Of a DNA stretch of 64,000 bases, positions 1,825 through 60,216 are shown piece by piece. This DNA comes from Candidatus Brocadiales bacterium. GTDB lineage: Bacteria; Planctomycetota; Brocadiia; Brocadiales; Bathyanammoxibiaceae. How positions within the stretch are numbered: the stretch's first letter is position 1; each line of letters opens with the position of its first letter. The stretch is from NCBI GenBank assembly GCA_046758865.1, contig JBHIBD010000002.1:4128-68127 (forward strand), read 5' to 3'. A program made the position numbers and the translations under genes. The notes under the pieces are model-generated. The model was not told the origin of the DNA, did no database searches, and saw only the letters and a program-made list of their open reading frames with translations.

Positions 1825-2057
1825 CAGGTAAGTAGAGCAATTACAATGCCATGTTATAGAATGTTTACAAGACTGTTGTGGTAAGGCATTATATCTTTTT
1901 TGAGTATATCTATCGTTGTGTGAAATATAGGCTTATGTTCACAGTAATAAAAGTCTTGCAATGTCCGGTCGATATTGAGAATAGTATCATCGAGACTATT
2001 GTATGTCGGATACTACGGCATTGCTGTAGAAGTATACAGTATTTTGGTATTTAGCCC

Positions 2058-2810
2058 ATGGCATTTAGGCAATATCTAGCGGCCTTTACTAACCTCCTCT
2101 ACCCGATGCATTGCTTTGGCTGCCGAAGGAGTCTTCATGGTGAGGAGAGTCGGTATCTTTGCAAGAGCTGCTGGGGAGGAATAAGTTATATTACAGGCAC
2201 ACGATGCCCGAGGTGTGGCATGGGCCTTGGTGATTATGCCCTGATTTCTCTGGAAGGCTGCGTGGAATGTAGGACCCACAGGTTCAGGTTTGATGGCGCC
2301 TTTTCTGCTGTCTATTATGAGGGTGTCATAAAAGAGCTTATACATCAATTCAAATATGGAAGACAAGAATTTCTCGCAGCACCCCTGGCAGAAATCCTCG
2401 TGCGGTATGTCAAAGAAAGCAACCTTAGTCTAGCCAATATAGATAAAGTGGTGGCTGTACCCCTCCATTGGAGGAAGAGGACAGAGCGGGGTTTTAACCA
2501 GGCAGAGCTTTTGGGGCGAAACGTTGGAAGGTTTCTTGGTATAGATGTATGCATTGGGGGCCTACAGAGGGTCCGAAACACCCGTTCCCAGACCAGCCTT
2601 CCCTATTATCGGCGTGAAGAAAATGTTCGTGATGCCTTTTTGGTCAAAAAACCCGCCGAATTTGGAGAAAAGGACATACTTCTTGTAGACGATGTCCTGA
2701 CCTCTGGCCTTACCGCATCGGAATGTGCCAGGGTTCTTAAAGAGGCCGGAGCAAGAAGGGTCTATGTCCTTACAGTTGTGAAATCTAGACGAATGATGGC
2801 CAGAGCTTAA
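2058..2810 (+). CDS. comF: ComF-family protein (phosphoribosyltransferase domain)
   Basis: N-terminal Cys-rich zinc-ribbon motifs, GFNQAELL, and C-terminal LLVDDVLTSG PRTase motif. Confidence 0.85.
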   Translation: MAFRQYLAAFTNLLYPMHCFGCRRSLHGEESRYLCKSCWGGISYITGTRCPRCGMGLGDYALISLEGCVECRTHRFRFDGAFSAVYYEGVIKELIHQFKYGRQEFLAAPLAEILVRYVKESNLSLANIDKVVAVPLHWRKRTERGFNQAELLGRNVGRFLGIDVCIGGLQRVRNTRSQTSLPYYRREENVRDAFLVKKPAEFGEKDILLVDDVLTSGLTASECARVLKEAGARRVYVLTVVKSRRMMARA

Positions 2811-3858: not shown

Positions 3859-5868
3859 ATGAATCGTCAACTACGGATATTGAATGCGGACGGCCTCCAT
3901 GCCCGTCCGGCCACCCGCTTTGCAGAGATAGCAAACAAGTACTCTGCGAAGATAAAGGTGAAGGCCAAGGATAAAGAGGTCAATGGTAAGAGTGTCATAG
4001 AGCTGCTAACGCTTGGTGCTGAACGGGGTACTGATATACGCATCATGGCAGACGGCAACGACGCTAATGATGCATTGGATGCCCTCTCCAGTCTGGTAAG
4101 TGGTAACTTCGATGAACAAACGATGGTTGTCAAGAAGGGTATAGCCCTGGCACCGGGTGTGGTGATAAGAAAGGCGTTTATTTTGGAGGGAACAGGCTAC
4201 TGGGTAAAGAGGAATTTTATCCTCGAGGAACAGGTCCCCCATGAAATAAAGAGACTTAAGAAGGCTATAGAAGCGACAGAGAAGCAGATGCTGGAACTTG
4301 AAAATCAGGTTTCCTCAAGACTGGGGCATGAAATAGCAACCGTCCTTGAGGCCCACAGGATGATATTGCGGGATGAGCATCTTAAGAGGGAATTTATCTC
4401 TAAAATAGAAAATTTTTGGGTCACAGCAGAGTTTGCCGTCTCGATGGTCTTGAAAGGCTATATAAAGAAATTCCACAGCATCGAAAACCAATACATAAAG
4501 GAACGGGCAGGCGATATAGTTGATATAGAGAACAAACTGCTGGGCAACCTGATGGGGGAGAAGCGCGAAGAGTTAAAAAATCTCTCGGAAGAGGTAGTAC
4601 TTATCACCCGCGTTTTAAGGCCTTCAGAGACAGCATCTCTCGATGCAGAAAAGATAAAAGGTTTTGCTACGGAGGTCGGCGGTAGAACATCACACACTGC
4701 CATACTGGCTCGCGCCTTGGGGATACCAGGCGTAGTGGGCCTCGGCACTATCACCACGGAGATTTACCCAGGTGATACGGTCATCATCGACGGAAACAAA
4801 GGCGTGGTAATATTAAGGCCTGACGAAGAGACCATAAATGAGTATGCGGAGAGGGAAAAGACTATACATGTATTTGAGGCCAAGCTTACTCAAGAATTAC
4901 AGGACCAGCCTGCTGAGACACCAGATGGCAGGGCGATAACCATCATGGGAAACATCGATTTCCCCAGGGAAGTTAAGACCCATCTACGCTACGGTGCCAG
5001 CGGTGTTGGGCTTTACAGGACGGAGTACCTCTTCCTTGAGACGGGCAATCCTCCCACTGAAGGACATCACCTTAGGTCTTACCTTGAGTCTGTGGAGCAG
5101 CTCGGGGACAGGCCGATCGTTGTAAGGACGGTGGACCTGGGGGCCGATAAGTTCTTCAATGGCAATGACTACATGGAATCAAATCCATTTCTGGGGTGCC
5201 GTTCCATCCGTTACTGCTTTGAACACCCGAACATATTTAACACCCAGCTAAAGGCAATCCTCAGGGCATCGGCCCTGAAGAAGAACGTAAGGATACTCTT
5301 TCCGCTTATTTCCTCCCTGCAGGAGTTCCGCAGGGCAAAGAAGATGGTTAGAGAGGCAATGGAAGAATTGGAGAGAAAAGGATTACCTTTTGACGAGAAC
5401 ATACCCATGGGGATTATGATAGAGGTGCCCTCATCTGTTCTGATAGCAGATGTGCTGGCTAAAGAAGCAGACTTCTTTAGCATAGGCACCAACGACCTAG
5501 TCCAGTACTCCTTGGCCATAGATAGGGACAACGAGGGGGTGGCCAAAATGTATTGCCCAGCACACCCCGCCATACTAAGGCTACTTAAGATGACCATTGA
5601 AGTTGCCGAAAATAACAATATTCCGGTGACGATGTGTGGCGAAATGGGCAGTGAATTGGAATATTTGGTGCTTCTGATGGGTTTGGGCCTAACAGAGTTC
5701 AGTGTGGCGCCGCCTACCATAATCCCTGCACTAAAGAAGGTTATACGCACCATTACATATGAAAGGGCTAGGGAGGTGGCCGAAGAGGTGTCCAAATTCA
5801 CTGACCCGGAGAAATCGGTACGCTACCTAAGAGAAATTACCAAAGAGATTCTCCCCGAGGCCTTCTAG
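3859..5868 (+). CDS. ptsI: Fused HPr domain + PEP-protein phosphotransferase (Enzyme I)
   Basis: N-terminal ~88 aa has the HPr motif GLHARPA. The remainder is EI (GGRTSHTAILAR phospho-His loop, PEP-utilising C-terminal TIM-barrel motifs). Confidence 0.9.
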   Translation: MNRQLRILNADGLHARPATRFAEIANKYSAKIKVKAKDKEVNGKSVIELLTLGAERGTDIRIMADGNDANDALDALSSLVSGNFDEQTMVVKKGIALAPGVVIRKAFILEGTGYWVKRNFILEEQVPHEIKRLKKAIEATEKQMLELENQVSSRLGHEIATVLEAHRMILRDEHLKREFISKIENFWVTAEFAVSMVLKGYIKKFHSIENQYIKERAGDIVDIENKLLGNLMGEKREELKNLSEEVVLITRVLRPSETASLDAEKIKGFATEVGGRTSHTAILARALGIPGVVGLGTITTEIYPGDTVIIDGNKGVVILRPDEETINEYAEREKTIHVFEAKLTQELQDQPAETPDGRAITIMGNIDFPREVKTHLRYGASGVGLYRTEYLFLETGNPPTEGHHLRSYLESVEQLGDRPIVVRTVDLGADKFFNGNDYMESNPFLGCRSIRYCFEHPNIFNTQLKAILRASALKKNVRILFPLISSLQEFRRAKKMVREAMEELERKGLPFDENIPMGIMIEVPSSVLIADVLAKEADFFSIGTNDLVQYSLAIDRDNEGVAKMYCPAHPAILRLLKMTIEVAENNNIPVTMCGEMGSELEYLVLLMGLGLTEFSVAPPTIIPALKKVIRTITYERAREVAEEVSKFTDPEKSVRYLREITKEILPEAF

Positions 5869-48498: not shown

Positions 48499-48556
48499 AA
48501 GACTAATCCGCCCAAGACGGACTATACAAATTAACTGGCTGGAGGTTTAAACGACA

Positions 48557-49336
48557 GTGGCTGGTGGACCGCATACTGGTAAAGAAAGATACAGGGTGAT
48601 GACGGTCGTCAAGGGTGAGGCCCTGAAGTCCAGGGATATATACGAGAGGCCGCCCAAGTATGAACTTTTCTTCCCGAATTTTGTTATGAAGGAGCTATGT
48701 GTCGGGCTGGCCTTCCTAATTATCCTCTTTGTTTGGGCCTACTTTAGGAATGCCCCCCTATATGAGCTGGCCGATCCAGGAGAGACCCCGGAGCACATAA
48801 AGGCCGCTTGGTACTTTGTTGGATTGCAAGAGATGCTGGCCTATTTTGACCCCTATTTGGCAGGGGTGATTATCCCAAGTGCTATATTGGCAGGACTTTA
48901 TCTTGCTCCCTTCCTTGATCCGGACCCCGTAAAGGGAATAGGCCGTTTCGCCTGGAAGGAGAGGAGGTTCGCCATGTGCACCTTCCTTGGGGGGTTTGTG
49001 TTTTGGTGGATGCTGATAATAGTAGGGTGGTATTTTAGAGGACCTTTGTGGGCCTTTTACTGGCCGTGGGAGGACCATTCTGTAGTCAAGGCCACAGAGG
49101 CTGTACAGTGGAACTTTCCTTTACCTGCGGGGATAGCCTACATAGTCGTCTTTTTTACCCTAGGAAACATTATACCTGCAATTATCTTTCCAAGGTTCTT
49201 TTACCGTCTGGGGATTGTTAGATACGTCATAACCATGTCCCTGTGGACGGGAATGATTTTTGTTGTGGCTAAGATGTTTCTGAGAAACGCCTTTGGCATT
49301 AAGTACATTTTAGTAACTCCATGGTTTAACGTGTGA
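48557..49336 (+). CDS. Cytochrome b C-terminal / subunit IV-like membrane subunit (cluster 1)
   Basis: KAAWYFVGLQEMLAYFDP (PEWY-like motif), multiple TM segments, GTG start. Confidence 0.82.
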   Translation: MAGGPHTGKERYRVMTVVKGEALKSRDIYERPPKYELFFPNFVMKELCVGLAFLIILFVWAYFRNAPLYELADPGETPEHIKAAWYFVGLQEMLAYFDPYLAGVIIPSAILAGLYLAPFLDPDPVKGIGRFAWKERRFAMCTFLGGFVFWWMLIIVGWYFRGPLWAFYWPWEDHSVVKATEAVQWNFPLPAGIAYIVVFFTLGNIIPAIIFPRFFYRLGIVRYVITMSLWTGMIFVVAKMFLRNAFGIKYILVTPWFNV

Positions 49337-49348
49337 GAGTGATGGGAT

Positions 49349-50692
49349 ATGATACCATTTCCAATTAATCTGTCCATTCCCTGGCTCATAGCGTTTCTGG
49401 TATTTGCGTGTGGCCTCGTAGCAACTTGTACTATATGGATATTTACCGAGTGGGGCGAGCCTGAGTGGAAGAAATATCAGCGGATAGAGCTAACGGAGAT
49501 GCGAGAAAACCTTGAAAAACAGTTACCCGTGCTGGAAGACCCCAAGTGGGGCGACCCCTCACAGGCCAAGATAGTAAGGGCCTCTATAGAGTTTCTCCGT
49601 AAACCGGACTACCAGATAAAGCAGATAATACTAAAGGGCCGAGGTAGCTGGAAGGAAGGCACAACCGGCATACCGGTGGACAGGTGCATGACCTGTCACA
49701 TAGACGAAGACAAGCTTACCAAGCAACACCCCTACACCAAAGACCACTTTGCCTATGACATCTATGGCTGCACGGTCTGCCACGAGGGCCAGGGCAGGGT
49801 GCTGACGAAGGAAGGTGCCCACGAGGGAATGTTGCGCAACAAGAGAGATATGATGCAGAGGATACAGAAGCCAGAGGAGATGGTGGCTTTATGGGAGAGG
49901 ATGGCCAAACTCTCTGTAGAGGAGGGAGATACGGCCTTTGATTTTAGGGATTATAGCGCTGCCGGAGAGAAGCTTGTGTACATGGGCAGCTTTGGCTGTC
50001 TTAAGTGCCATAGAAAACTTACCCCACGCCACGTTGAGGTGTGGGCGGATAACAAGTTCAAGACCTGGGAAAAGGTGCAAGCGGCAGAAGATTATGTTGA
50101 AGGTGACGAGAATTACCAGAAAAAGTGTTTGAAGTGCCACACCACGGGTTATGACGAAAAGACCGGTGAGTACGCCGAAGAGAACGTCACCTGTGAGGCC
50201 TGTCACGGACCGGGTGAGATGTATGTCAAGTTCATGAGCGAGGGAAAGCTGGCAGAGGCCGCTGTGGTGACCTACGAAGTGTTTAGTTTCAAGGTCTGCG
50301 GGAGATGTCATGTGTCGCGCAGACACGAGATGAGAGAGGCCATGCTGTTGGCTGTAGAGGAGGAGGAGGAGTTCTCAGAATGGCTGGCATCGTCCTTTGT
50401 TGAGGAATCAGATGCCCTTCACGCCAGCATTTCTGAAGAGACGGAGGCCTTCGGGTTAGAAGAACTGAAGGGATTGGAAGAGGTAGCTAACTCGTTGGAT
50501 ATGATGCTGGAGGATTTAAGGACATTGTTGCCTGAGCAAGAAGAAACTGTTCAAACTGCCGAGGAAGTGGAGCCTGACGGTGAAGGACCGCCACATCCAC
50601 TGAGGGCCAGACTAGAGGCCCCTGAGCCTTTCATGCAAGAGGCCCAGGCAGAGACGGCCAAAGAACCATTTAGTGGTAAGGGTGTGTATTAA
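49349..50692 (+). CDS. Membrane-anchored hexaheme cytochrome c with acidic C-terminal tail (cluster 1)
   Basis: N-terminal TM and six CXXCH motifs (CMTCH, CTVCH, CLKCH, CLKCH, CEACH, CGRCH). Confidence 0.88.
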   Translation: MIPFPINLSIPWLIAFLVFACGLVATCTIWIFTEWGEPEWKKYQRIELTEMRENLEKQLPVLEDPKWGDPSQAKIVRASIEFLRKPDYQIKQIILKGRGSWKEGTTGIPVDRCMTCHIDEDKLTKQHPYTKDHFAYDIYGCTVCHEGQGRVLTKEGAHEGMLRNKRDMMQRIQKPEEMVALWERMAKLSVEEGDTAFDFRDYSAAGEKLVYMGSFGCLKCHRKLTPRHVEVWADNKFKTWEKVQAAEDYVEGDENYQKKCLKCHTTGYDEKTGEYAEENVTCEACHGPGEMYVKFMSEGKLAEAAVVTYEVFSFKVCGRCHVSRRHEMREAMLLAVEEEEEFSEWLASSFVEESDALHASISEETEAFGLEELKGLEEVANSLDMMLEDLRTLLPEQEETVQTAEEVEPDGEGPPHPLRARLEAPEPFMQEAQAETAKEPFSGKGVY

Positions 50693-50697
50693 CCCGG

Positions 50698-50791
50698 GTA
50701 GGGGCACGGCATGCCGTGCCCCTTACTGGAGGTTGTCTGTAGCGTTGGAGCTTGCTCCAACGTTGAACGTGGCAGCAAGCTGCCACGCTAC
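50698..50791. repeat. REP-like hairpins inside cluster 1
   Basis: GTAGGGGCACGGCATGCCGTGCCCCTTAC (50698-50726) and GTAGCGTTGGAGC...GCTGCCACGCTAC (50739-50791). Confidence 0.85.
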
Positions 50792-50914
50792 ATTAAAAAT
50801 ATTTTTGCAATAAATGGATAACCGAGTGTAAAGAAAGGGGGTGGTGAAAAGGTATAAAAGAAGGCTAGTAGATCTCTCGTTACTAGAGGGAAATTTAAAA
50901 AAGGGGGATTAAGT

Positions 50915-52642
50915 ATGAAACAATGGAGCTTGCTTGCAGTGTTACTCTGTACGGGCTTGATTCTGGGAGTAGCGCCCAGTGCGGCGGTAGCCGAGGGGCC
51001 CTTCGCTGGTGATCCCAACGCCACCGTGGCAGCAGACCTTCCTCCTCTCAACCTGATGTACCCAGATAAGATGAAACCGGCCTGGGAGGAGTGGGTAGGT
51101 CTTGAGATGGGCGGTGGGCCTTTTAGGAAGCTTTATAGGCCCATACCCATGCACATGTACATTGCTCCCACAAAGCACTATATCAGGCCTGACATGTCTG
51201 GGTTTGCTGAGTTGTTCAAGAAGTTCCAGCCCGGCCAGTGCGAGGAGTGCCATATGGAGGTAACTCCCGGCTGGGTCCACCAGTGGGAAGATTCTGCCCA
51301 CGGCAACCCGAAGCACAAGGCAAAGTGGGCCGAGAAGACGAAGGCAATAGAAAAGAAGCTGGGCAGGACACTTGACAAGGTGGGCTGCGCTGAGTGTCAC
51401 GGCTCAAGCCACGACAGGCTTCAGATGCCCAACCTGGACAACTCCTGCGCACACTGCCATGAGCAGCAGGCCAAGGAGTTTGTCGCCGGGAAGAAGCAGG
51501 GCAGACCGAGCCACTTTCACAGTTGGATCTCAAATATTGTACCCCCCTGGTATATTGAGAACTACAGGAGGGGTGAAGGTGCAGGCATGATTGGCTGCGA
51601 CGTCTGTCACCCTGAGATGCAGCGCTGTGACGGCTGCCACATGAGGCATCTCTTCGGCACCAAGATGGCCAAGAAGCCCGGCACCTGCGGAAAGTGTCAC
51701 ATGGGTTATGACCACCCGGACTATGAGTCCTATACCAAGTCCGCTATGGGTGTTATCTATCAAGATACTGGCGCCGAATGGAACTGGGACTTGAACATGG
51801 AGGACATAGTCCCTGGTAAGGACTGGAGGGCGCCGACCTGTGCCTACTGCCATATGTATCAAGGCGGTGGGAAGTGGGGCCACACCGAGAACATCAATGG
51901 CATCTGGCGCATGGGTGTCTATAAGCCCAAGCAGAGGAACTATGAGTACAAGTCCAGCTTGAAGAATTCTCCCTACGGGATAAACATCCCGCCTCTTAAC
52001 AGGATTGTGGATGTTGACTCACCTGAGCTCAAGAAGAGAAGGGAGAACTGGATTGAACTCTGCTCCAACTGCCACAGCCCACGCTTCTCCAGGCTCTGGC
52101 TGGAGAACCTGGACGAGTTCATGCTGATAGGCTGGCAGCACACGGATGCAAGTATGGCCGTGTTGGACGACCTGTATAAGGCAGAGGCTATTATACCCAC
52201 GCCGGAGAATCGTGACCCATGGTTTCTTGGTGACGTGCTTGCCGACATACTGGGGCCGAAGAAGCTGGGTGAGACCCTTTACAACGCCTTCAAGACCACA
52301 CAGGGCCACTTCCCGATTTATGGGCCTATCCTTGCTACCGGCGACCAATATGTGACAGGTCCAGGCCGGCCGCACGAGATAGAGCTTTACCTTAATGAGC
52401 AGTGGTTCAGTCATCTGCTGAAGGCCTTCAAGGGTACTGCCCATGCCCAGCAGGATTACTCCTGGTGGTACGGTTGGTCGCCGATGTTGAAGGACCAGGC
52501 CAGGATACAGTCTAACGCCGTTAACCTCTACAGGCTGCTGGCTATAGAGAAGAAGCTAGGTATCAAGGCCAGTGGAGAACTGCCCAGCGACAAGAAGATT
52601 TACGGGCATACTCCTCTCTACACCAGCGGTAAGAGGAAGTAG
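50915..52642 (+). CDS. Octaheme hydroxylamine-oxidoreductase-like (HAO-family) cytochrome c (cluster 1)
   Basis: Signal peptide and eight CXXCH motifs (CEECH, CAECH, CAHCH, CDVCH, CDGCH, CGKCH, CAYCH, CSNCH). Confidence 0.88.
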   Translation: MKQWSLLAVLLCTGLILGVAPSAAVAEGPFAGDPNATVAADLPPLNLMYPDKMKPAWEEWVGLEMGGGPFRKLYRPIPMHMYIAPTKHYIRPDMSGFAELFKKFQPGQCEECHMEVTPGWVHQWEDSAHGNPKHKAKWAEKTKAIEKKLGRTLDKVGCAECHGSSHDRLQMPNLDNSCAHCHEQQAKEFVAGKKQGRPSHFHSWISNIVPPWYIENYRRGEGAGMIGCDVCHPEMQRCDGCHMRHLFGTKMAKKPGTCGKCHMGYDHPDYESYTKSAMGVIYQDTGAEWNWDLNMEDIVPGKDWRAPTCAYCHMYQGGGKWGHTENINGIWRMGVYKPKQRNYEYKSSLKNSPYGINIPPLNRIVDVDSPELKKRRENWIELCSNCHSPRFSRLWLENLDEFMLIGWQHTDASMAVLDDLYKAEAIIPTPENRDPWFLGDVLADILGPKKLGETLYNAFKTTQGHFPIYGPILATGDQYVTGPGRPHEIELYLNEQWFSHLLKAFKGTAHAQQDYSWWYGWSPMLKDQARIQSNAVNLYRLLAIEKKLGIKASGELPSDKKIYGHTPLYTSGKRK

Positions 52643-52656
52643 TGAGTGATTATTAT

Positions 52657-52699
52657 GGGGGAGCCGCCTGCTCAAGAGTAGGCGGCCCCTCCATTTTTT
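52657..52699 (+). terminator. Rho-independent terminator after HAO-like gene 1
   Basis: GGGGGAGCCGCCT / AGGCGGCCCCTCC stem (one mismatch), 10-nt loop, then ATTTTTT. Confidence 0.6.
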
Positions 52700-52800
52700 A
52701 GATTTGTGTTGTTGTGTCTTTCTACGGGTGTTTGTTTTTTTCTCCGGGGGTATAGGATCGAGGAGTTTAGGTGGCTTAATAGTTTTTGCAGGGGACTTTG

Positions 52801-53300
52801 ATAAGGGTTCCATTCTAAACTGCGTTAAAAGGAGGAGGACCGCCAATGCCACTTAGGGGCGAGACTGATGCTACTACTTCATTGGATGTGAAAAGTGCAA
52901 TAGACCTTCAGCCCACGGAGCTGAAGATTAACCCTGCTGGAAAGGTGACTCTCACCCTCCCCGGGATGAAGATAAGGCTGCCCGATGTTAAGGTGAAGCT
53001 CTGGTTTATGCCCCTTATCCGAGTGAGTGGCATGGAGGTGACTACGGAGCCTGCAAACCTCGAGGTGGATTTGTCGGATACGACAATGGAGGCCAGGGTA
53101 GAGCGTGCTACAAAGATAGAGATTCTTACTAATGGAGAGGTAAAGGCGCACGCCAAGCTGGAGGGTTCGGGTAGCCTCCAAGGCGGACCTATGAGCCTGG
53201 AGATTCCCGCAGATTAACTTCTTCCTGAGTCGAGAACAAGTCAGTAGATCACGGGTTTTATGTTGTGGCCTATGAACGTTTCTCTGTGCCTGTATCTAAA
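52801..53300 (+). repeat. 500-bp perfect direct repeat, copy 1 (copy 2 at 62362-62861)
   Basis: Line-by-line comparison at offset 9561 shows no mismatch. Identity drops sharply at both ends. Confidence 0.9.
52846..53217 (+). CDS. Orphan 123-aa acidic, beta-rich hypothetical protein (copy 1)
   Basis: Strong RBS AAAGGAGGAGG 8 nt before the ATG. No signal peptide, TM segment or Cys. Identical second copy and one degraded third copy. Confidence 0.6.
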   Translation: MPLRGETDATTSLDVKSAIDLQPTELKINPAGKVTLTLPGMKIRLPDVKVKLWFMPLIRVSGMEVTTEPANLEVDLSDTTMEARVERATKIEILTNGEVKAHAKLEGSGSLQGGPMSLEIPAD

Positions 53301-53516
53301 GAGAGTAATGGGTTTTAGTTGGGAAAGACTGCCATTCATGTGCCCTCATGTCTGACCTCCCAGCCCTTTCTGGGCCTGCTTGCCCTAAGTAGTTCTTAAG
53401 GAAAGAGGACCACTACCACAACCCTCTTTAAGGTTAAAGATCAACTCTCCACCCGCCTTGACTTTTTTAAAAAAAGTTCTTGCAAATACTATTTTGTGTG
53501 GTATAGTTTTCGACAT

Positions 53517-53675
53517 GATGTTGAGAATAGTATCATCTAAACTATACATGTCGAATAATACGGCATCTGTCGTAAGACTATACAGTTTTCTGGTATTCAG
53601 CTTATGGTGTTTAGGCAATATCTAGCGGCCTTCGTTGGCCCCCTCTATCCAATGCATTGCTTTGGCTATCGAGGG
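53517..53675 (+). pseudogene. Diverged copy of the comF upstream region plus its first ~22 codons
   Basis: Aligns without gaps to 1971-2129. About 80% identity by eye (59/72 over the coding part). Confidence 0.8.
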
Positions 53676-53689
53676 AAGGCACACGCAGG

Positions 53690-54199
53690 GGGCCTGCTAA
53701 TTCTGTAACAATAAACTTTAAGACTGTAGCAAAAACCTCACCTTAAAACGGCAGGAATAATGATGAGGGATAGTAGGCGAAGCATCCTTCAACAATCCAG
53801 CCTTGCCTCTGGTACGGCCGTTACCCTCGGTCTTTCAACGTCTACCCCCTCTTACGAGTTAACATACTCTGATTTGAACCCCCTCAAACAAAAATGGCAA
53901 GTGGTGATAGTCTCATTTTCTTATAGAGAGAAGATGTGTACAAAGGGCCTGCTAATTCTGTAACAATAAACTTTAAGACTGTAGCAAAAACCTCACCTTA
54001 AAACGGCAGGAATAATGATGAGGGATAGTAGGCGAAGCATCCTTCAACAATCCAGCCTTGCCTCTGGTACGGCCGTTACCCTCGGTCTTTCAACGTCTAC
54101 CCCCTCTTACGAGTTAACATACTCTGATTTGAACCTCCTCAAACAAAAATGGCAAGTGGTGATAGTCTCATTTTCTGATAAAGGGAAGATATGCGCAGA
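53690..54199 (+). repeat. Two tandem 255-bp units, each containing a Tat-signal-like 5' gene fragment
   Basis: Period 255 (53693 aligns to 53948). Produces the twin 67-aa ORFs 53760.. and 54015.. (MMRDSRRSILQQSSLASGTAV...). Confidence 0.88.
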
Positions 54200-54347
54200 G
54201 AGCCTGTCAATTCTATAGCAATAGACTTCAAAGAAGATGCATTCTCGATATCTCTAGAAGAGCTCTCCCTAATAAGGGCCAAGCATCTGGAGGCCGCACG
54301 GCGATCTGCGCTGAGTGATATACCTATAGCCACCTCTGTGAATAAGG
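54145..54347 (+). pseudogene. 5' fragment copy B of the cluster-2 oxidoreductase gene (leader plus ~52 codons)
   Basis: Aligns to 54782-54984 at offset 637. ORF 54191 encodes MRREPVNSIAIDFKEDAFSISLEELSLIRAKHLEAARRSA.. Confidence 0.8.
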
Positions 54348-54348
54348 G

Positions 54349-54544
54349 ACTTTGTAAGAGTCCCATTCTATCTAACTGTGTAAAGGAGGGGACCGACAAT
54401 GCCACTTAGGGGCGAGACGGACGCTACTGTTTCATTTTCTAAGGAGATGAAGGTAAAGGCCAAGGATAAAGAGGTCAATGGTAAGGGCATCATAGAGCTG
54501 TTAACACTTGGCGCTGAGCAGGGTACTGATATACGCATCATTGC
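54349..54544 (+). pseudogene. Chimeric fragment: RBS plus first ~12 codons of the 123-aa ORF joined to a 99-bp internal piece of the HPr gene
   Basis: 54349-54435 resembles 52796-52883. 54446-54544 aligns to 3951-4049 (KVKAKDKEVNGK..IELLTLGAE.GTDIRI). Confidence 0.8.
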
Positions 54545-54584
54545 TAGACGAAAATGTCTTAATTGTAAACGGTGTAAACAATGT

Positions 54585-54768
54585 GAGAGGGAAAATATGC
54601 ACAGAGAACCTGCCAATTCTATAACAATAAACTTCAAGGAAGGTGCATTCTCGATATCTCTGGAAGAGCTCTCCCTGATGAGGGCCAAGTAACCACAGAG
54701 GCCGCACGGCAGCCTCCAGGGCGGACCTATGAGCCCAGAGATTCCTGTGAATTAGCTTCTTTCAGAGG
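54585..54768 (+). pseudogene. 5' fragment copy C of the cluster-2 oxidoreductase gene joined to the 3' end of the 123-aa ORF
   Basis: 54597 ATG...MHREPANSITINFKEGAFSISLEELSLMRAK. 54711-54768 resembles 53173-53230 (SLQGGPMS.EIP). Confidence 0.75.
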
Positions 54769-54827
54769 AGTGGATAGTCTTAAAAATGGTAAGTGGTGAT
54801 AGTCTCATTTTCTTATAAAGGGAAGAT

Positions 54828-56795
54828 ATGCGCAGAGAGCCTGTCAGTTCTATAACAATAAACTTCAAGGAAGAAGCATTCTCAATATCTCTAGAAGAGC
54901 TCTCCCTGATGAGGGCCAAGCATCTGGAGGCCGCGCGGCAATCTGCGCGGAGCGATATACCTATAGCCACCTCTGTGGATAAGGAATGGTTTAGTGAAAA
55001 TGTACCCTGTCGCCGCACCTGTCCGGCTCGCACCAATGCCAGGGGCTATGTAATGGCCATTGCTGAAGGCAGGTACCAGGAGGCCTATCTGATTGCCAGG
55101 AGGAATAACCCCTTTGTTTCCGTCTGCGGCAAGGTCTGTGGTGCGCCCTGTGAGTCGGCCTGCCGGAGGGGCAAGGTGGATGAGGCGGTATCTATAAGGG
55201 CCTTGAAGGATTTTGCCGTAGAAAGCAACCGCCTGAGTACTGAAGAGGTTTATCGCTGGCTGGGGCAGAAGATGGAGAGGGTGGTGCCGGTGGTGAGGGG
55301 GAGGAAGTCTCCCCGTCTCGTTTCAGTTTGTAGTGAGCGCACTCTTTCAAGCCAACCCGTTTGCTCCCCGGCCCGGGTGGCAATAGTTGGTGCGGGGCCC
55401 GCCGGTCTTTCGGCCGCCCATGACCTGACCCTCATGGGCTATCAGGTAAAGCTCTATGAGGCCAGCAGTAACCCTGGTGGTATGCCTGCCAATGCACTGC
55501 CCTTCTTCAGGCTGGATAGAGAGGCGGTGAGGAAGGATGTGGAATCCATACTCTCTCTGGGCATAGAGCTGGAAGTTAATAAGGTCTGCGGAAAGGACTT
55601 CAGCATTGACCAGCTCTGGGAGGAGTTTGATGCAGTCCTTATAGCAGTGGGGCTCCAGAAGGGGAGGGTTATCCCCATCCCAGGGGTGGAGTTGTCGGGG
55701 GTCTTATCGGGGTTGGACCTCTTGATGGACGTAGCGGCTGGCCGAAAGGTTACTTTGAGTCAGAAGGTAATGGTAGTGGGAGGGGGATGCGTGGCTACGG
55801 ATGTAGCCAGGGCAGCGGTGAGATTGGACTCCACCAGGGAGGTGCACCTGGTATGCCTAGAGGCCATGAAGGGCTGTAGACCCGATGATCCCAGGGAGGA
55901 GATGCCTGCCTGGGTCGGTGACGTTGTAGATAGTAAGGAGGAAGGAATCATCTTTGATACCTCCTGTAGCCCCAAGAGGGTGGTGGGTCAGAATGGCAGG
56001 GTCAAAGGTCTAGAGGTGATAAGGGTAAGCTCTGTTTACGACTCTGAGGGTCGTTTCAAACCCACCTATATCCCAGGTACAGAACGTATCATAGAATGCG
56101 AGAACATCCTCTGGGCCGTGGGTCAGGCCCCTGATATGAGTTTCCTGGAAGGTAGTCAGGGTTTTGAGCTTAACCAGAGGAAGATGCTAAAGGTAGACCC
56201 CGTTACCCAGGCCACTTCCAAGCCTGGAGTCTTTGCCTGTGGTGACATCCTGGGTCCTGGCCTGGTAATAGACGCAGTAGCCTCGGGTCAACGGGCTGCC
56301 CAGGCCATCCATCAGTACCTGGGAGGTAGCGGCTTCCTGGGGTTGAGCAGACAGGTGCGCATGGAGGCTATACCCGTTCCCCGTAGGTTTGAGAGGTTCT
56401 TCCCCGGAATCTCCTTGAAAAGGCTACTTCCTGCCCTGCTGCCTCCCAAGGAGAGGCTCAAGGGATGGGAGGCCGCAGAGATACCTTACTCGGAATACGA
56501 TGCCCGGGAACAGGGCCGGCGGTGCCTCAACTGCAATGTCAGCCCGATAATAGGGCGGGAGAGGCCGTGTATCCTCTGTGGGGGTTGTGTAGACGTCTGC
56601 CCCACCAGGGCTATCTCTATGGTCTATCTGGATGATTCAGTGGTGAAAGAGTCAGCCCTCTTGGATGGCGGGGCAGGTGGTGGGCCCTGGGTAGGGCTGA
56701 CAAAAGATGAGGAGCTTTGCATCCACTGCGGGCTGTGTGACTATCGCTGTCCTGTTGATGCCATTTCAATGGTGAAGTTTGAGGAAATCTTGTAG
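54828..56795 (+). CDS. GltD-like FAD/NAD(P)-binding oxidoreductase with FeS domains (cluster 2)
   Basis: Paralogue of 45390-47288. VAIVGAGPAGLSAAHDL, CILCGGCVDVCP, CIHCGLCDYRCP. Confidence 0.85.
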   Translation: MRREPVSSITINFKEEAFSISLEELSLMRAKHLEAARQSARSDIPIATSVDKEWFSENVPCRRTCPARTNARGYVMAIAEGRYQEAYLIARRNNPFVSVCGKVCGAPCESACRRGKVDEAVSIRALKDFAVESNRLSTEEVYRWLGQKMERVVPVVRGRKSPRLVSVCSERTLSSQPVCSPARVAIVGAGPAGLSAAHDLTLMGYQVKLYEASSNPGGMPANALPFFRLDREAVRKDVESILSLGIELEVNKVCGKDFSIDQLWEEFDAVLIAVGLQKGRVIPIPGVELSGVLSGLDLLMDVAAGRKVTLSQKVMVVGGGCVATDVARAAVRLDSTREVHLVCLEAMKGCRPDDPREEMPAWVGDVVDSKEEGIIFDTSCSPKRVVGQNGRVKGLEVIRVSSVYDSEGRFKPTYIPGTERIIECENILWAVGQAPDMSFLEGSQGFELNQRKMLKVDPVTQATSKPGVFACGDILGPGLVIDAVASGQRAAQAIHQYLGGSGFLGLSRQVRMEAIPVPRRFERFFPGISLKRLLPALLPPKERLKGWEAAEIPYSEYDAREQGRRCLNCNVSPIIGRERPCILCGGCVDVCPTRAISMVYLDDSVVKESALLDGGAGGGPWVGLTKDEELCIHCGLCDYRCPVDAISMVKFEEIL

Positions 56796-56809
56796 AGAGG
56801 TCGTATGCG

Positions 56810-57328
56810 ATGTTTAAGTCTAAGTCTATGACTCATAGAGAGGGAGCTATACCCCTGGGGCTCAAGAGGCCCTCCAGACGGCAGGCCCTGTGGACTGCGC
56901 TCTGGTGGAGTGGCTGGGGGGTAATCTTTGGCATGCTCTGTGTTGCAGGGGCAACCCTGGTGCGGTTCCTCTACCCCAGGGCCACTTATGAGCCCTCTAA
57001 GGTCTTTAAGGCCAAGAGGCCTGAGCAGTACGCAATGGGCTCGGTAAACCTGGTGCCCGGCCGAAAGGTCTGGATAATACGGGAAGAGAGGGGCTTTTAT
57101 GCCCTCCTGGCCATATGTACCCATCTGGGTTGCCAGCCGGTGTGGTATGAAAGCCAGCAGATATTTAAATGCCCCTGCCACGGCAGCCGCTTTTATAAGG
57201 ATGGGATAAACTTCGCTGGCCCGGCCCCCAGGCCCCTGGAGCGCATGGAGATTACCTTGGCTAGCGATGGGCGGCTGGTGGTGAATGAGGGCAAGGCAGT
57301 GGATATAGACTACTTCCTGAATGTCTAG
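56810..57328 (+). CDS. Rieske [2Fe-2S] subunit (cluster 2)
   Basis: CTHLGC and CPCHGS boxes, SRRQAL Tat-like motif. Confidence 0.9.
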   Translation: MFKSKSMTHREGAIPLGLKRPSRRQALWTALWWSGWGVIFGMLCVAGATLVRFLYPRATYEPSKVFKAKRPEQYAMGSVNLVPGRKVWIIREERGFYALLAICTHLGCQPVWYESQQIFKCPCHGSRFYKDGINFAGPAPRPLERMEITLASDGRLVVNEGKAVDIDYFLNV

Positions 57329-57351
57329 CTATTCCTTTTAGGAGGAGAGCG

Positions 57352-58086
57352 ATGAATATATTCGTCCAGATATGGAGGTCTATATTCAGGACTGGTGTCT
57401 CTGACAGCCCCCTCCACCGGGTCTTCCGGGTGGTGGCAAATTTTATCCTCCATATCCATCCGTCCCGGGTGAGCAAGGAAGGCATAAAGTTTAATTACAC
57501 CTTCTGCCTGGGTGGGCTCAGCCTCTTCTTTTTTGTAGTCACTGCCATAACCGGTGGGTTTCTGATGATTTATTATGTACCCGATGTGGATAAGGCCTAT
57601 TCCAGCATGAAGGACCTGGACGATGTAGTACCTTTCGGCACATTTCAGAGAAACCTCCACCGCTGGGCAGCCCACCTGATGGTCGTCTTTGTGCCCCTGC
57701 ACATGCTAAGGGTATTTTTGACCAGCTCTTATAAACCACCCAGAGAGTTTAACTGGGTCATCGGGGTGGGCCTGCTTATGATAACCTTCTTGCTCAGTTT
57801 TACGGGCTATCTACTGCCATGGGACCAGTTGTCTTTTTGGGCAGTAACGGTAGGAGCTACCATGGGGGAAAATACCCCTCTTCTGGGCGCTAAAGGCCCT
57901 TTTAGCCTCTTGGGTCCGGAAGAGGATGTCCATTTTATCCTTTTGGGTGGCACCGCCATAGACCAGCCTACCCTCATCCGCTTTTATTTTGCCCACTGTG
58001 TGGGCCTGCCAGGGGCCGCAGCGGGATTAATGGCCATCCACTTCTGGAGGATTAGAAAGGCAGGAGGCATCTCTAGGCCCTTGTAG
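57352..58086 (+). CDS. Cytochrome b6-like subunit (cluster 2)
   Basis: H-x13-H, H-x14-H, FCLGG. 38 aa longer at the N-terminus than copy 1. Confidence 0.9.
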   Translation: MNIFVQIWRSIFRTGVSDSPLHRVFRVVANFILHIHPSRVSKEGIKFNYTFCLGGLSLFFFVVTAITGGFLMIYYVPDVDKAYSSMKDLDDVVPFGTFQRNLHRWAAHLMVVFVPLHMLRVFLTSSYKPPREFNWVIGVGLLMITFLLSFTGYLLPWDQLSFWAVTVGATMGENTPLLGAKGPFSLLGPEEDVHFILLGGTAIDQPTLIRFYFAHCVGLPGAAAGLMAIHFWRIRKAGGISRPL

Positions 58087-58098
58087 TGTCTTAGACCA

Positions 58099-58875
58099 AT
58101 GGCTGAGAAAACAGAAAGCAAAGAAAAGGTTAGACTCCTTACCGTGGTGAGAGAGGACGTCCTGCTCAGGCAGCGGGATGTCTATCCTAAGGAAGTGAAG
58201 GTAGACACCTGGCCCCACTTGGTGAAGAGGGAACTCATAGCCCTGCTGGCGGCCTCCGTAGTGCTGATGGTCTGGAGCCTGGTACAGGATGCCCCCCTGG
58301 AGGAGCTGGCCAATCCTAGTGAGACCCCCAAGGAGGCCAAGGCCCCCTGGTATTTCGTGGGCCTGCAGGAACTGCTGGTATATTTTGACCCCTGGATAGC
58401 AGGGGTGGTGCTGCCTACGGTCATCCTTATTGGCCTGGCCATTATACCCTATATAGACCCTGACCCTGTAAAGGGGGTGGGCCGCTACACCCTTGGGAAG
58501 AGAAAGTTTGCCGTGTCCTGCTTCATTGGTGGCTTTGCTATGTGGTTTGTCTTGGTGGTAGTGGGACAGTATTTTCGGGGTCCCTTCTGGAGCTTTTACT
58601 GGCCCTGGGAGGGCCGGGAGGTGGTGAAGCCCATGGAGGCGGCCCTGGTCAGTTTCCCCCTGCCAGTAGGCATAGCCTTTCTGGTATGTTATGGGGCCCT
58701 GGTGCTCATCCTCCCTGCTATCTTCTTCAAGAATTTCTTCTTCAGGCTGGGCCTTATACGATATTTCATTACCATGAATCTATTTGCTGGCCTGCTCTTT
58801 GTGCCTATCAAGATATTCCTGAGGCACATCTTGCATGTCAAATACATACTGGTAACCCCCTGGTTTAACGTGTGA
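58099..58875 (+). CDS. Cytochrome b C-terminal / subunit IV-like subunit (cluster 2)
   Basis: KAPWYFVGLQELLVYFDP. Paralogue of 48557-49336. Confidence 0.82.
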   Translation: MAEKTESKEKVRLLTVVREDVLLRQRDVYPKEVKVDTWPHLVKRELIALLAASVVLMVWSLVQDAPLEELANPSETPKEAKAPWYFVGLQELLVYFDPWIAGVVLPTVILIGLAIIPYIDPDPVKGVGRYTLGKRKFAVSCFIGGFAMWFVLVVVGQYFRGPFWSFYWPWEGREVVKPMEAALVSFPLPVGIAFLVCYGALVLILPAIFFKNFFFRLGLIRYFITMNLFAGLLFVPIKIFLRHILHVKYILVTPWFNV

Positions 58876-58887
58876 AGGTAAAGCGAT

Positions 58888-60216
58888 ATGGCATGGAGGA
58901 TACCCTTTGTTGTCTTATCGGTAGCCCTGCTGGGCCTGCTCATCATCTGGATTATCAGGGAGATTAACCCCCAGTGGAAGGGCCATCAGGAGGCCGCTTA
59001 TGCCCAACAGGTGGAGAGACTGGAGCAGGAGTTGGAGAGGTGGTCCGACCCTAAATGGGGGGACCCTGTCACGGCAGAAAAGGTGAGACAGAGGATTGAG
59101 GCCCTAAAAAGACCCCACCTGGGAGTAAAACAGATACTCCTTAAAGGCACCGGGCTCTGGAAGGAGGGGGAAAACGGGGAGAAGGTGGACAGGTGTATGA
59201 CCTGCCATATAGATGAAGACAAATTGGTAGAACTGCACCCCAAAACATTTGATTATTTCCCTTATGACATCTATGGCTGTACGGTCTGCCACGGAGGTCA
59301 TGGCGAATCCCTCCGGCTGGAGAAGGCCCATAAGGGCATGCATACCGACAGGAAAGAGATGATAGGTACGATAGACACCGCTGACGCCGTGCTGGAACTG
59401 TGGAAGGAACTGGCCAAACTCTCCCCGAAGGAGGACCAAAGGGCCTCAGATTATAAGTATTACAGCATAACCGGCGAGAAGGCGGTCTACGTGGGCAGCA
59501 TCACCTGCCTCAGGTGTCACAAGGGCCTCACCACCTGGCACATTAACCGCTGGAAGGACAACAAGTTTGTCACAATGGAACGGGTCAAAAAGGCCAGAGA
59601 TTTTATAGAGGGTGATGAAGACTACAGGAAGAAGTGTTACAAGTGCCATACCACCGGGTACGATGAAGAGAGCGGCAAATATGTAGAGGAAGGTGTGACC
59701 TGTGAGGCCTGCCACGGACCCGGCCAGCTTTACGTTTATTTTATGAGTATGGGAAAGGTAGAAGAGGCCCAGAGGCTCAGCAAGCTGGGCTTTAGCTACG
59801 AGGTCTGTGGCAGATGCCATATGGCCAGGCACCACGAGATGAGGGCTCAATTCCTGGCCAAGATTCAATCCGAAGGCCCGAAGTCCCAGGTTCTGGCGCA
59901 GGAAGTAGAAAAGAAAGAGGCCCTTCAGAAAGAAACCTCTCAGGAAGAGGTGATACCTGTTTCCTTACAGGTGCCCGTATTTGAGGTGTCTCCAGAGATA
60001 TCCCCCTTCTCGGAAGACAACACCATCAGGGAAATTAAACTGGTAATCCCTGAAGTAGGGGCTGCCCCTCCGGCCCAGAAGGCTGAGGAGCAAGAAGCCG
60101 TGTCTTTGGATATAGATAATAGAAGTACCCACAGTGGAAAGGAGGGATTACCCCTTAAAACCCAGACTGAAGCCTTACAAGAAGCAGCGACCACACCTCG
60201 AGGCGAAGACCCATAG
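58888..60216 (+). CDS. Membrane-anchored hexaheme cytochrome c (cluster 2)
   Basis: Six CXXCH motifs (CMTCH, CTVCH, CLRCH, CYKCH, CEACH, CGRCH). Confidence 0.88.
   Translation: MAWRIPFVVLSVALLGLLIIWIIREINPQWKGHQEAAYAQQVERLEQELERWSDPKWGDPVTAEKVRQRIEALKRPHLGVKQILLKGTGLWKEGENGEKVDRCMTCHIDEDKLVELHPKTFDYFPYDIYGCTVCHGGHGESLRLEKAHKGMHTDRKEMIGTIDTADAVLELWKELAKLSPKEDQRASDYKYYSITGEKAVYVGSITCLRCHKGLTTWHINRWKDNKFVTMERVKKARDFIEGDEDYRKKCYKCHTTGYDEESGKYVEEGVTCEACHGPGQLYVYFMSMGKVEEAQRLSKLGFSYEVCGRCHMARHHEMRAQFLAKIQSEGPKSQVLAQEVEKKEALQKETSQEEVIPVSLQVPVFEVSPEISPFSEDNTIREIKLVIPEVGAAPPAQKAEEQEAVSLDIDNRSTHSGKEGLPLKTQTEALQEAATTPRGEDP

What the first reader, a model, noticed from the sequence alone, without database searches (positions are those of the whole stretch)
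53301..54827. 1.5-kb junction between the two clusters is a patchwork of fragments from at least five different genes
The order of pieces is as follows. (1) 53517-53675 is a diverged copy of the comF promoter region plus 22 codons (matches 1971-2129). (2) 53690-54199 holds two 255-bp tandem units. Each joins a truncated leader and start of the cluster-2 oxidoreductase gene to the 5' end of an unknown Tat-signal gene. (3) 54145-54347 is oxidoreductase leader plus 52 codons. (4) 54349-54435 is the RBS plus 12 codons of the 123-aa ORF. (5) 54446-54544 is 99 bp from the middle of the HPr gene (matches 3951-4049). (6) 54585-54710 is oxidoreductase 5' end again. (7) 54711-54768 is the 3' end of the 123-aa ORF. 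(8) 54776 onward is the functional leader and gene. The fragments are diverged from their sources (about 80-90%), so this is not an assembly artefact of identical reads. Most pieces are promoter-proximal gene starts. Possible explanations are repeated template switching or illegitimate recombination at a fragile tandem-duplication joint, or a stack of captured promoters and leaders driving cluster 2.
Basis: seen in the sequence. Interest (0 to 1): 0.75.

Follow-up and report, generated by a model that had tools for sequence, protein, structure and literature searches.

The report
Scarred leader of a respiratory operon
The 1.5-kb stretch really is a mosaic of diverged gene fragments, but it is best read as the inherited promoter and leader of the second Rieske/cytochrome b operon, overlaid with old duplication, deletion and copy-paste scars, not as a new kind of genetic device.

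Summary
They are all in direct orientation and far above chance (blastn E 1e-11 to 1e-115). The interpretation needs correcting.

1. The stretch is the native upstream region of cluster 2. Five independent assemblies of related Brocadiales carry the same hairpin, the same sigma-70-like promoter (window 53480-53507) and the same ~255-bp module upstream of the orthologous oxidoreductase. The module has a Tat-like start, a leader and a decayed 12-codon start, in 1-3 tandem copies.

2. The 'unknown Tat-signal gene' has no parent. An exhaustive HMMER search of 1.84 billion proteins finds only short ORFs, and the peptide shows no coding constraint.

3. The other pieces are specific to this lineage. 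They are the comF 5' end, an in-frame HPr piece, and oxidoreductase 5' ends fused to the 5' and 3' ends of the 123-aa ORF. They derive from the lineage's own genes, and where both donors are known the joints show short microhomology of 2-6 bp. They look like relics of operon-scale tandem duplications that later collapsed, plus templated insertions.

4. Only one promoter-like site exists on the + strand, so a 'stack of captured promoters' is not supported.

The order of the pieces could not be verified independently of this assembly. Interest is modest.

The parts
52730..53340 (+). Relic 3' end of a cluster-2-type operon copy placed after cluster 1. It holds the HAO-123 intergenic region, the 123-aa ORF (52846-53217) and the downstream spacer up to the ATG of the next gene.
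   Evidence: 52801-53300 equals 62362-62861 exactly over 500 bp, and older homology reaches 53340/62901 and 52730/62074. Logan contigs L001 and L002 confirm the HAO1-to-repeat link.
53341..53396 (.). 56 nt with no donor, lying between the duplication joint and the start of homology with relatives.
   Evidence: No match in the window or in the fetched loci.
53397..53475 (+). Conserved upstream region with the hairpin AAAGAGG(53402-53408)...CCTCTTT(53423-53429).
   Evidence: Aligns to L007 186-297 (82%), L008 8689-8792 (77%) and L003 4319-4501 (72%).
53480..53507 (+). Sigma-70-like promoter TTGCAA-16-TATAGT with a TG extension. It is the presumed promoter of cluster 2.
   Evidence: It is the only + strand hit in 52600-55000. 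Both hexamers are identical in L003, L007, L008 and L012.
53517..53676 (+). Copy of the comF upstream region plus 22-24 codons. It forms a 34-aa ORF at 53604-53708. Its 5' half also resembles the 'X' leader of the relatives.
   Evidence: 80% identity to 1971-2130, E 2e-35. Only 65% to the comF of relative L014. Similarity to X gives z 6-8.
53667..53722 (+). Partial unit 0: a decayed oxidoreductase SD, start and 12 codons, fused to the comF piece.
   Evidence: The joint has the microhomology GA(G/A)GGA.
53690..54199 (+). Two 255-bp tandem leader modules. Each holds a Tat-like uORF (53760-53963, 54015-54218), a pyrimidine anti-SD, an SD and an oxidoreductase start.
   Evidence: TRF period 255. 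191 bp plus 40 bp are exact between the units. Orthologous modules occur in L003, L007, L008/L009, L011 and L012.
54145..54347 (+). Ghost A: ancestral-position leader plus the first 52 codons of the oxidoreductase.
   Evidence: 92.6% identity to 54782-54984. The equivalent stretch is contiguous with the real gene in L007 (1298-1669) and L008 (9791-10157).
54346..54436 (+). Ghost 123-aa ORF 5' end: hairpin, SD and 12 codons.
   Evidence: 82% identity to 52792-52883 and 62359-62444. Joint shown.
54438..54544 (+). HPr domain fragment (codons 29-64 of ORF 3859-5868), kept in its native frame.
   Evidence: 87% identity to 3943-4049. Pfam PF00381 scores 28.6 bits. Only 79% to the HPr of L014.
54545..54585 (.). 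41 nt with no donor.
54586..54711 (+). Ghost B: oxidoreductase SD plus about 38 codons, with an in-frame stop at codon 32 (54690-54692). It is the oldest copy.
   Evidence: 87% identity to 54819-54940. It keeps the ancestral residues A6 and N7 seen in the relatives.
54708..54767 (+). Ghost 123-aa ORF 3' end: the last ~13 codons, the stop codon and ~12-15 nt beyond it.
   Evidence: 82% identity to 53170-53229 and 62731-62790.
54768..54781 (.). 14-nt filler GAGTGGATAGTCTT, resembling the adjacent leader sequence GTGGTGATAGTCTC.
54782..54827 (+). Truncated functional leader (anti-SD TCTCATTTTCT plus SD) of the intact oxidoreductase gene 54828-56795.
1971..2130 (+). Donor: comF upstream region and first codons.
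3943..4049 (+). Donor: internal part of the HPr domain of the HPr-EI gene.

Best explanation
The stretch is the degenerate 5' promoter and leader region of the second Rieske/cytochrome b-HAO-type operon (cluster 2).

Inherited backbone (shown). It consists of a hairpin, a sigma-70-like promoter at 53480-53507, a short 'X' leader, and a ~255-bp module in tandem. The module holds a relic twin-arginine-signal start, an anti-SD/SD leader and a decayed copy of the first 12 oxidoreductase codons. The same backbone, with 1-3 module copies, lies upstream of the orthologous oxidoreductase in related Brocadiales. There it is additionally split by a truncated IS3-family element.

Lineage-specific layer (origin shown, non-function inferred). 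The window's lineage added scars that look non-functional:
- a homology-assisted copy of the comF promoter and 5' end;
- relics of one or two operon-scale tandem duplications that later collapsed by internal deletion, leaving the 5' end of the first gene fused to the 5' or 3' end of the last gene;
- a third such relic on the cluster-1 side (52730-53340);
- a 107-bp templated piece of HPr;
- short fillers.

Mechanism (inferred). Replication-based template switching or illegitimate recombination at short microhomologies, promoted by the pre-existing tandem repeats. This was followed by near-neutral decay and local gene conversion.

Expression (inferred). Cluster 2 is presumably driven from the conserved promoter, or by read-through from cluster 1, across a ~1.3-kb leader full of small ORFs.
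For: Fragments and orientation.

Backbone shared with relatives.
- In L007 and L008 the Tat-like unit is contiguous with the real gene (window 53974-54347 aligns to L007 1298-1669).
- The pseudo-starts inside the units share derived states across species (CAAAG, CTGTAA), so the module duplication predates speciation.

Only one + strand promoter-like site, and it is the conserved one.

No parent for the Tat-like ORF. It shows no codon-position bias (23/17/19 variable sites). Its pN/pS is 0.64 in frame against 0.74 and 0.86 out of frame. One copy in L003 is frameshifted.

Leader divergence between species (16-29%) is about equal to synonymous divergence of the operon (pS 0.22-0.28).

The ghosts group with the window's own gene (90-92%), not with the relatives (78-84%). 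The comF and HPr pieces are closer to the window's own genes than to those of L014.

Breakpoints with 2-6 bp imperfect microhomology and fillers.

Duplication-type joints at 54767/54782 and 53340/53341.

No Rfam family, no Pfam domain other than the HPr piece, no terminal inverted repeats, and no IS OrfA homologue in the window.

GC is 41-47% in the stretch against 53-60% in the flanking genes.
Against: - The order of the pieces rests on one MAG contig. Independent Logan contigs break at the repeats (52830, 54894) and do not span the junction.
- The two ghost 123-aa pieces (82%) are more diverged than ghost A (92.6%). A single-event history therefore needs later gene conversion.
- Some blocks of the module are invariant and mutually complementary (GAGGG..TAGGCG with CGTCTA..CCCTC), and the anti-SD/SD hairpin is kept in every copy. 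Part of the leader may therefore be functional.
- The 97-aa ORF 54399-54692 keeps the native frame of three fragments (chance about 1 in 9).
- No transcription data are available.
Confidence: 0.65

Rival explanations
1. Functional regulatory leader. The Tat-like uORF, the anti-SD/SD hairpin and the reiterated translation-start regions would form an attenuator or translational control device. Its module copy number would tune expression of the Rieske/cytochrome b-HAO operon.
For: - The module persists in at least five assemblies of related species, in 1-3 copies.
- Its invariant blocks are mutually complementary, and the SD-sequestering hairpin is present in every copy.
- The functional gene in the window still keeps the anti-SD plus SD.
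Against: - There is no covariation, because the paired blocks never vary.
- Overall divergence equals the neutral expectation.
- The peptide is unconstrained and one copy is frameshifted.
- In the window the last module is separated from the functional gene by ~630 bp of ghost DNA.
- The module is absent from the 62%-identical relative L010.
- No Rfam family matches.
Confidence: 0.15
2. Assembly artefact. The mosaic would be a chimeric path through a metagenome graph that mixes alleles of co-occurring strains.
For: - The sequence is from a MAG.
- It holds a 500-bp exact repeat and 191-bp exact tandem-unit matches that short reads cannot span.
- No independent contig spans the junction.
Against: - The longest exact repeat among ghost pieces 3-8 is 32 nt, shorter than a read, so every joint should be covered by single reads.
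- Joints between unrelated genes (oxidoreductase codon 52 to the 123-aa RBS, the 123-aa ORF to HPr) share no k-mers that could mislead an assembler.
- Relatives assembled independently show the same kind of repeat architecture.
- Logan contigs from two runs break where real repeats would force a branch. L001 and L002 end 30 nt into the 500-bp repeat. L013 starts at 54894, the first base of the exact match with ghost B, though that match is only 27 nt.
Confidence: 0.08
3. Debris of a mobile element. The fragments would have been mobilised or joined by an IS element that has since been lost, through IS-mediated adjacent deletions and duplications.
For: In L003, L007, L008/L009 and L011 a truncated IS3-family element is inserted in a Tat-like start of the same leader. 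It has an IS3-family-like left end (read from the sequence and recalled consensus), an orfA with HTH_Tnp_1, and the start of orfB.
Against: - tblastn of the relatives' OrfA finds no homologue in the window.
- The junction has no terminal inverted repeats.
- The window lineage branches outside the IS-bearing group, so the IS probably arrived after the split.
Confidence: 0.07
4. A stack of captured promoters and leaders that together drive cluster 2.
For: The comF piece begins 4 nt upstream of a plausible comF -35 box (TTGAGA-16-TATTGT at 1975-2002) (read from the sequence).
Against: - In the junction copy the -10 box has become TATACA.
- The scan finds only the conserved promoter on the + strand.
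- All other pieces start at or after the SD of their source gene.
Confidence: 0.03

Closest known systems
Complex rearrangements by replication template switching (FoSTeS / MMBIR; e.g. PMC5120786, PMC11790251, PMC3678771; original descriptions recalled from own knowledge)
   Same: Several short segments are copied from non-adjacent templates on the same replicon, 50 kb away and 2 kb apart. They are joined at 2-6 bp microhomologies with small fillers, next to duplications.
   Different: All segments here are in direct orientation. They are old (7-20% diverged), so the joints are blurred. The event was not observed forming, and the rearrangement sits in a bacterial operon leader.
Tandem gene amplification followed by collapse ('accordion' dynamics of bacterial duplications; textbook knowledge, cf. 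bioRxiv 10.64898/2026.05.22.727201 for junction classes)
   Same: There are joints linking the 3' end of the operon to its own 5' leader (54767/54782, 53340/53341). The ghost copies keep only the two ends of the unit.
   Different: Amplifications usually vanish without trace. Here relics persisted for a sizeable fraction of the species-level divergence.
Rieske/cytochrome b complexes of anammox bacteria with an NAD(P) oxidoreductase subunit and an HAO-like octahaem protein (Kuenenia Kuste4569-4574, Kustd1480-1485; PMC12954380)
   Same: Both clusters share that gene content: an FAD/NAD(P) oxidoreductase with Fe-S domains, Rieske, cytochrome b, multihaem cytochromes and an HAO-like protein.
   Different: This is context only. 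No such leader has been described for the Kuenenia clusters, as far as the held literature shows. The organism is an unnamed Brocadiales MAG.
Export-monitoring leader peptides (SecM, MifM, VemP; own knowledge)
   Same: A small upstream ORF with a signal-peptide-like N-terminus precedes a membrane-complex operon.
   Different: There is no arrest motif, no peptide-level constraint, there are frameshifted copies and a variable C-terminus. The resemblance is superficial.

Membership tests
Templated-insertion / template-switch rearrangement (FoSTeS/MMBIR type) | Multiple segments copied from non-adjacent templates of the same replicon | tested here: met
   The comF 5' end (1971-2130), HPr (3943-4049), the oxidoreductase 5' end and the 123-aa ORF ends all have donors in the window. 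The copies are closer to the window's own genes than to those of L014.
Templated-insertion / template-switch rearrangement (FoSTeS/MMBIR type) | Microhomology or short fillers at the joints | tested here: inconclusive
   Four joints show 2-6 bp imperfect overlaps, and there are fillers of 14 nt and 41 nt. With 7-20% later divergence the original joints cannot be read exactly.
Tandem duplication with later collapse | A joint that links the 3' end of the unit to its own 5' end | tested here: met
   The 123-aa ORF stop plus 15 nt, then a 14-nt filler, then leader position -46 (54767-54782). Also the ATG of the gene downstream of the operon joined to the region upstream of the promoter (53340|53341).
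Tandem duplication with later collapse | Copy-number differences between strains or reads | not testable with these tools
   No reads or closed sister genomes are available. Only the 255-bp module is seen to vary, from 1 to 3 copies, among species.
Mobile element (IS, MITE, integron cassette) | Transposase or integrase gene, or terminal inverted repeats bounding the mosaic | tested here: not met
   No Pfam hit in the junction ORFs except HPr. No homologue of the relatives' OrfA in the window. No convincing terminal inverted repeats.
Twin-arginine (Tat) exported protein gene | S-R-R-x-F-L-K type motif plus a hydrophobic stretch | tested here: met
   The ORF begins MRxSRRx(Y/F/I)LQQSGIAxGMAV in all copies. 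The match to the Tat consensus is judged by eye from own knowledge.
Twin-arginine (Tat) exported protein gene | A mature domain after the signal, with homologues and purifying selection | tested here: not met
   The ORFs end after 37-79 aa. Only three short ORFs are found in 5.8 billion and 1.84 billion proteins. pN/pS is 0.64, not different from the off-frames, and one copy is frameshifted.
Described cis-regulatory RNA (Rfam) | Match to a covariance model | tested here: not met
   No match up to E = 1 in 53200-54900 and none at gathering score.
Assembly chimera | Joints coincide with exact repeats of k-mer length or longer | tested here: not met
   Exact repeats among pieces 3-8 are at most 32 nt. 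Only the tandem units (191 nt) and the flanking 500-bp repeat are long. Read-level confirmation was not possible.

The most novel reading that the evidence does not exclude
The clade-conserved ~255-bp module (Tat-like upstream ORF, two invariant complementary blocks, anti-SD/SD hairpin) would be a working attenuator or translational switch. Its copy number would tune expression of the Rieske/cytochrome b-HAO operon. The reiterated translation-start relics would act as ribosome-loading or decoy sites on a 1.3-kb leader.
Probability: 0.08. Interest if true: 0.55.

Novelty: new member of a known kind. Interest (0 to 1): 0.3.

Why it matters
The stretch records how a key respiratory operon of an uncultured Brocadiales lineage has been repeatedly duplicated, trimmed and patched. 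It also locates the likely promoter and leader of that operon across several species, which helps anyone mapping its regulation. It warns annotators that the small ORFs here (34, 67, 72 and 97 aa) are fragments rather than genes. It warns assemblers that this locus carries a 500-bp exact repeat and near-identical tandem units. It does not reveal a new mechanism.

Tried and rejected
- Exact-sequence look-ups of the 123-aa ORF, the oxidoreductase and the junction ORFs of 97 aa and 72 aa found nothing on record. The junction could therefore not be confirmed in a second assembly.
- Logan contigs carrying HAO1 and the cluster-2 Rieske protein stop at the repeats.
- A metagenome scan for the Tat-like start motif gave no match.
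- A parent gene for the Tat-like ORF was sought with a profile in 5.8 billion proteins and exhaustively in 1.84 billion representatives. Only three short ORFs were found.
- Peptide-level selection on the uORF was tested and rejected.
- A structured-RNA reading was examined. RNAalifold gives pairs but no covariation in the main stems, and Rfam has no match.
- An apparent recurrent breakpoint at the hairpin upstream of the 123-aa ORF dissolved on inspection. Cluster 2 simply carries an extra ~205-221 nt at that position.
- A cDNA origin for the comF piece was considered. It was rejected because the piece starts upstream of the putative -35 box, not at a transcription start.
- An identity gradient between the clusters, as a sign of spreading gene conversion, was looked for. 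The change is abrupt at 52793-52801.
- A shared 'X' element between the comF upstream region and the cluster-2 leader was sought in relative L014. Only a weak palindrome-type resemblance was found (E 0.04; z 0.4-7.3).
Full report
**Context.** The window comes from a MAG labelled Candidatus Brocadiales bacterium; the oxidoreductase is 100% identical to an NCBI protein on a 70,007-bp contig. It carries two co-oriented clusters of the anammox-type Rieske/cytochrome b kind. Cluster 1 spans 45375-53217 and cluster 2 spans 54828-62778. Each encodes an FAD/NAD(P) oxidoreductase with Fe-S domains, a Rieske protein, cytochrome b, multihaem cytochromes, an HAO-like octahaem protein and a 123-aa ORF of unknown function. 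This gene content matches the Kuenenia complexes Kuste4569-4574 and Kustd1480-1485 (PMC12954380). The two clusters are old paralogues. They are about 60% identical in DNA along their length, and 46% identical in the oxidoreductase protein.

**Observation.** All are on the + strand, with E-values from 1e-11 to 1e-115. Pfam confirms the donor genes. ORF 2058-2810 is ComF-like. ORF 3859-5868 is an HPr-EI fusion. The junction copy of HPr still scores above the Pfam cut-off. The donors lie in a comF-hpf-ptsN-HPr/EI block that is syntenic in a relative. The stretch has 41-47% GC against 53-60% in the flanking genes.
- A third, partial unit starts at 53667.
- A further repeat covers 53201-53340.
- Three short stretches have no donor.

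**What the relatives show.** The cluster-2 oxidoreductase has orthologues at 82%, 79% and 76% identity in other Brocadiales/Planctomycetota MAGs (L003, L007, L008/L009). Two short contigs (L011, L012) carry the same upstream DNA. In all of them the region upstream of the oxidoreductase has the same backbone:
- a hairpin;
- a sigma-70-like promoter with identical hexamers (window 53480-53507, TTGCAA-16-TATAGT with TG);
- a short 'X' leader;
- one to three tandem ~255-bp modules.

Each module holds a Tat-like start (MRxSRRxYLQQSGIAxGMAV...STSTPSYKVTYSNFLKVSE), a pyrimidine-rich anti-SD followed by an SD, and a decayed copy of the first 12 oxidoreductase codons. In L007 and L008 the last module runs straight into the real gene; window 53974-54347 aligns to L007 1298-1669. 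The pseudo-starts share derived states across species, so the module duplication is older than the species. In L003, L007, L008/L009 and L011 a truncated IS3-family element sits in one Tat-like start. Its left end resembles IS3-family termini (read from the sequence and recalled consensus), and it keeps orfA (HTH_Tnp_1) and the beginning of orfB. The window lacks it. The window branches outside that group. In L003, L008 and L012 the gene upstream of the leader is a divergent TPR gene, not cluster 1. A more distant relative (62%, L010) has no such leader. The backbone of the 'junction' is therefore the inherited promoter and leader of cluster 2.

**The Tat-like ORF.** A profile of eight copies finds only three short ORFs (54-77 aa) among 5.8 billion proteins. 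An exhaustive HMMER search of 1.84 billion representatives finds the same three. Across nine copies, variable sites fall 23/17/19 on the three codon positions. pN/pS is 0.64 in frame against 0.74 and 0.86 in the other frames. One copy in L003 is frameshifted. I read it as the relic 5' end of a lost Tat-dependent gene, carried along in the leader. It is not a donor gene elsewhere, and it is not a constrained leader peptide.

**Is the leader constrained?** Leader identity between the window and the relatives is 71-84%. The proportion of synonymous differences in the oxidoreductase is 0.22-0.28. The leader as a whole therefore drifts at about the neutral rate. The exceptions are the promoter hexamers, two invariant and mutually complementary blocks (GAGGG..TAGGCG with CGTCTA..CCCTC), and the anti-SD/SD hairpin. 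There is no covariation to support a structure, and no Rfam family matches.

**Lineage-specific pieces.** Ghost A (54145-54347) is the ancestral-position leader plus 52 codons. It is 91.7% identical to the functional gene over the first 96 nt. Ghost B (54586-54711) is 89.6% identical, carries a stop at codon 32, and keeps ancestral residues. Both are 78-84% identical to the relatives, so they arose in this lineage. The HPr and comF pieces are closer to the window's own genes (87%, 80%) than to those of relative L014 (79%, 65%). The breakpoints are as follows:

| Joint | Position | Overlap or filler |
|---|---|---|
| comF codon ~23 to the oxidoreductase SD | ~53670 | overlap GA(G/A)GGA |
| Oxidoreductase codon 52 to the hairpin upstream of the 123-aa ORF | 54347/8 | overlap GG |
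| 123-aa codon 12 to HPr codon 29 | 54436/8 | not resolved |
| HPr to oxidoreductase position -10 | 54544 to 54586 | 41 unassigned nt |
| Oxidoreductase codon ~38 to the last 13 codons of the 123-aa ORF | 54708-54711 | overlap GGCA/GGTA |
| 123-aa stop plus 15 nt to leader position -46 | 54767 to 54782 | 14-nt filler |

The last row is the kind of joint a tandem duplication of the promoterless operon would make. The oxidoreductase-to-123 joints are what internal deletions of such extra copies would leave. On the cluster-1 side, 52730-53340 is a third relic of a cluster-2-type 3' end. It has a 500-bp exact core with older flanks, and it stops at the ATG of the gene that follows cluster 2. Its layout matches L007 better than the window's own cluster 2 does, because cluster 2 carries an extra ~205-221 nt at 62133-62353.

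**Mechanism.** The following points are shown:
- the origin, orientation and approximate age of the pieces;
- the shared backbone;
- the single promoter-like site on the + strand.

The following points are inferred:
- repeated operon-scale tandem duplication followed by collapse;
- templated insertions by template switching or illegitimate recombination at microhomologies, helped by the tandem modules;
- possible help from a weak resemblance between the comF upstream palindrome and the X leader;
- later local gene conversion, seen as the 191-bp and 500-bp exact tracts.

The exact order of events cannot be resolved. The two 123-aa relics are 82% identical to their source, while ghost A is 92.6% identical, so conversion or several events are needed.

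**Rivals.**
- A functional attenuator-type leader is not excluded, but it has no positive evidence beyond the invariant blocks.
- An assembly chimera is unlikely, because the exact repeats among the ghost pieces are at most 32 nt and the joints link unrelated sequences. No independent contig spans the region, however. Logan contigs end 30 nt into the 500-bp repeat, and one starts at 54894, the first base of a 27-nt exact repeat with ghost B.
- An IS-mediated origin has no trace in the window.
- A stack of promoters is contradicted by the scan and by the decayed comF -10 box.

**Verdict.** The feature is real and well described. Its meaning is ordinary: rearrangement scars layered on a conserved operon leader. 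It is a new example of a known kind. It is useful for annotating and studying the regulation of this operon, and it is of modest general interest.

Noticed in passing
window 1743-1824 and 24790-24871; L014 3683-3760: An 82-nt double-hairpin element is present twice in the window at 100% identity (fold z -4.4). The copy upstream of comF is conserved in relative L014, so the second copy looks like a recent ectopic copy.
   Followed up: partly
L003 4954-5259, L007 840-1139, L008 9309-9611, L009 5288-5590, L011 730-894: An orphan IS3-family OrfA (HTH_Tnp_1, ~100 aa) is kept intact in the operon leader of four related species, while orfB is deleted. pN/pS is 0.16-0.54 (0.23 in frame against 1.49 out of frame for L007 vs L008). 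It may be a domesticated regulator.
   Followed up: partly
window 62133-62353: An extra ~205-221 nt with a G/C-rich palindrome (CCCTCCCCCCTCAAGGGGGAGGG) lies between HAO2 and the 123-aa ORF. It is absent from the cluster-1-side copy and from L007, so it may be a small insertion element.
   Followed up: no
window 54399-54692: A 97-aa ORF reads through three fragments in their native frames: the 123-aa ORF N-terminus, HPr residues 29-64 and the oxidoreductase N-terminus. The chance of this is roughly 1 in 9, and there is no evidence of expression.
   Followed up: partly
window 52846-53217 and 62407-62778; L007 9073-9444; L010 13970-14332: A conserved ~120-aa ORF with no Pfam family ends the cluster-2-type operon in several species. 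Its two copies in the window are identical.
   Followed up: no
window 24966-25254: Eight overlapping 24/36-nt repeats encode an Ala/Pro/Glu/Val-rich stretch in ORF 24900-25238, which begins with a lipoprotein-like signal.
   Followed up: no
window 11536-11772: Two to three tandem 87-96-nt repeats at 65-80% identity lie inside a coding region.
   Followed up: no
window 53573-53592 and 54763-54782: A 20-nt inverted match (80%) links the X leader and the 14-nt filler at the last joint. It is probably chance, but it could mark an inverted template switch.
   Followed up: no
L013 (= window 54894-62297), L001/L002 (= window 50764/50804-52830): Logan contigs from SRR29324601 and SRR29324603 are 100% identical to the window. 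They break at or near repeat boundaries, so these runs hold the same strain and could be used for read-level validation.
   Followed up: partly
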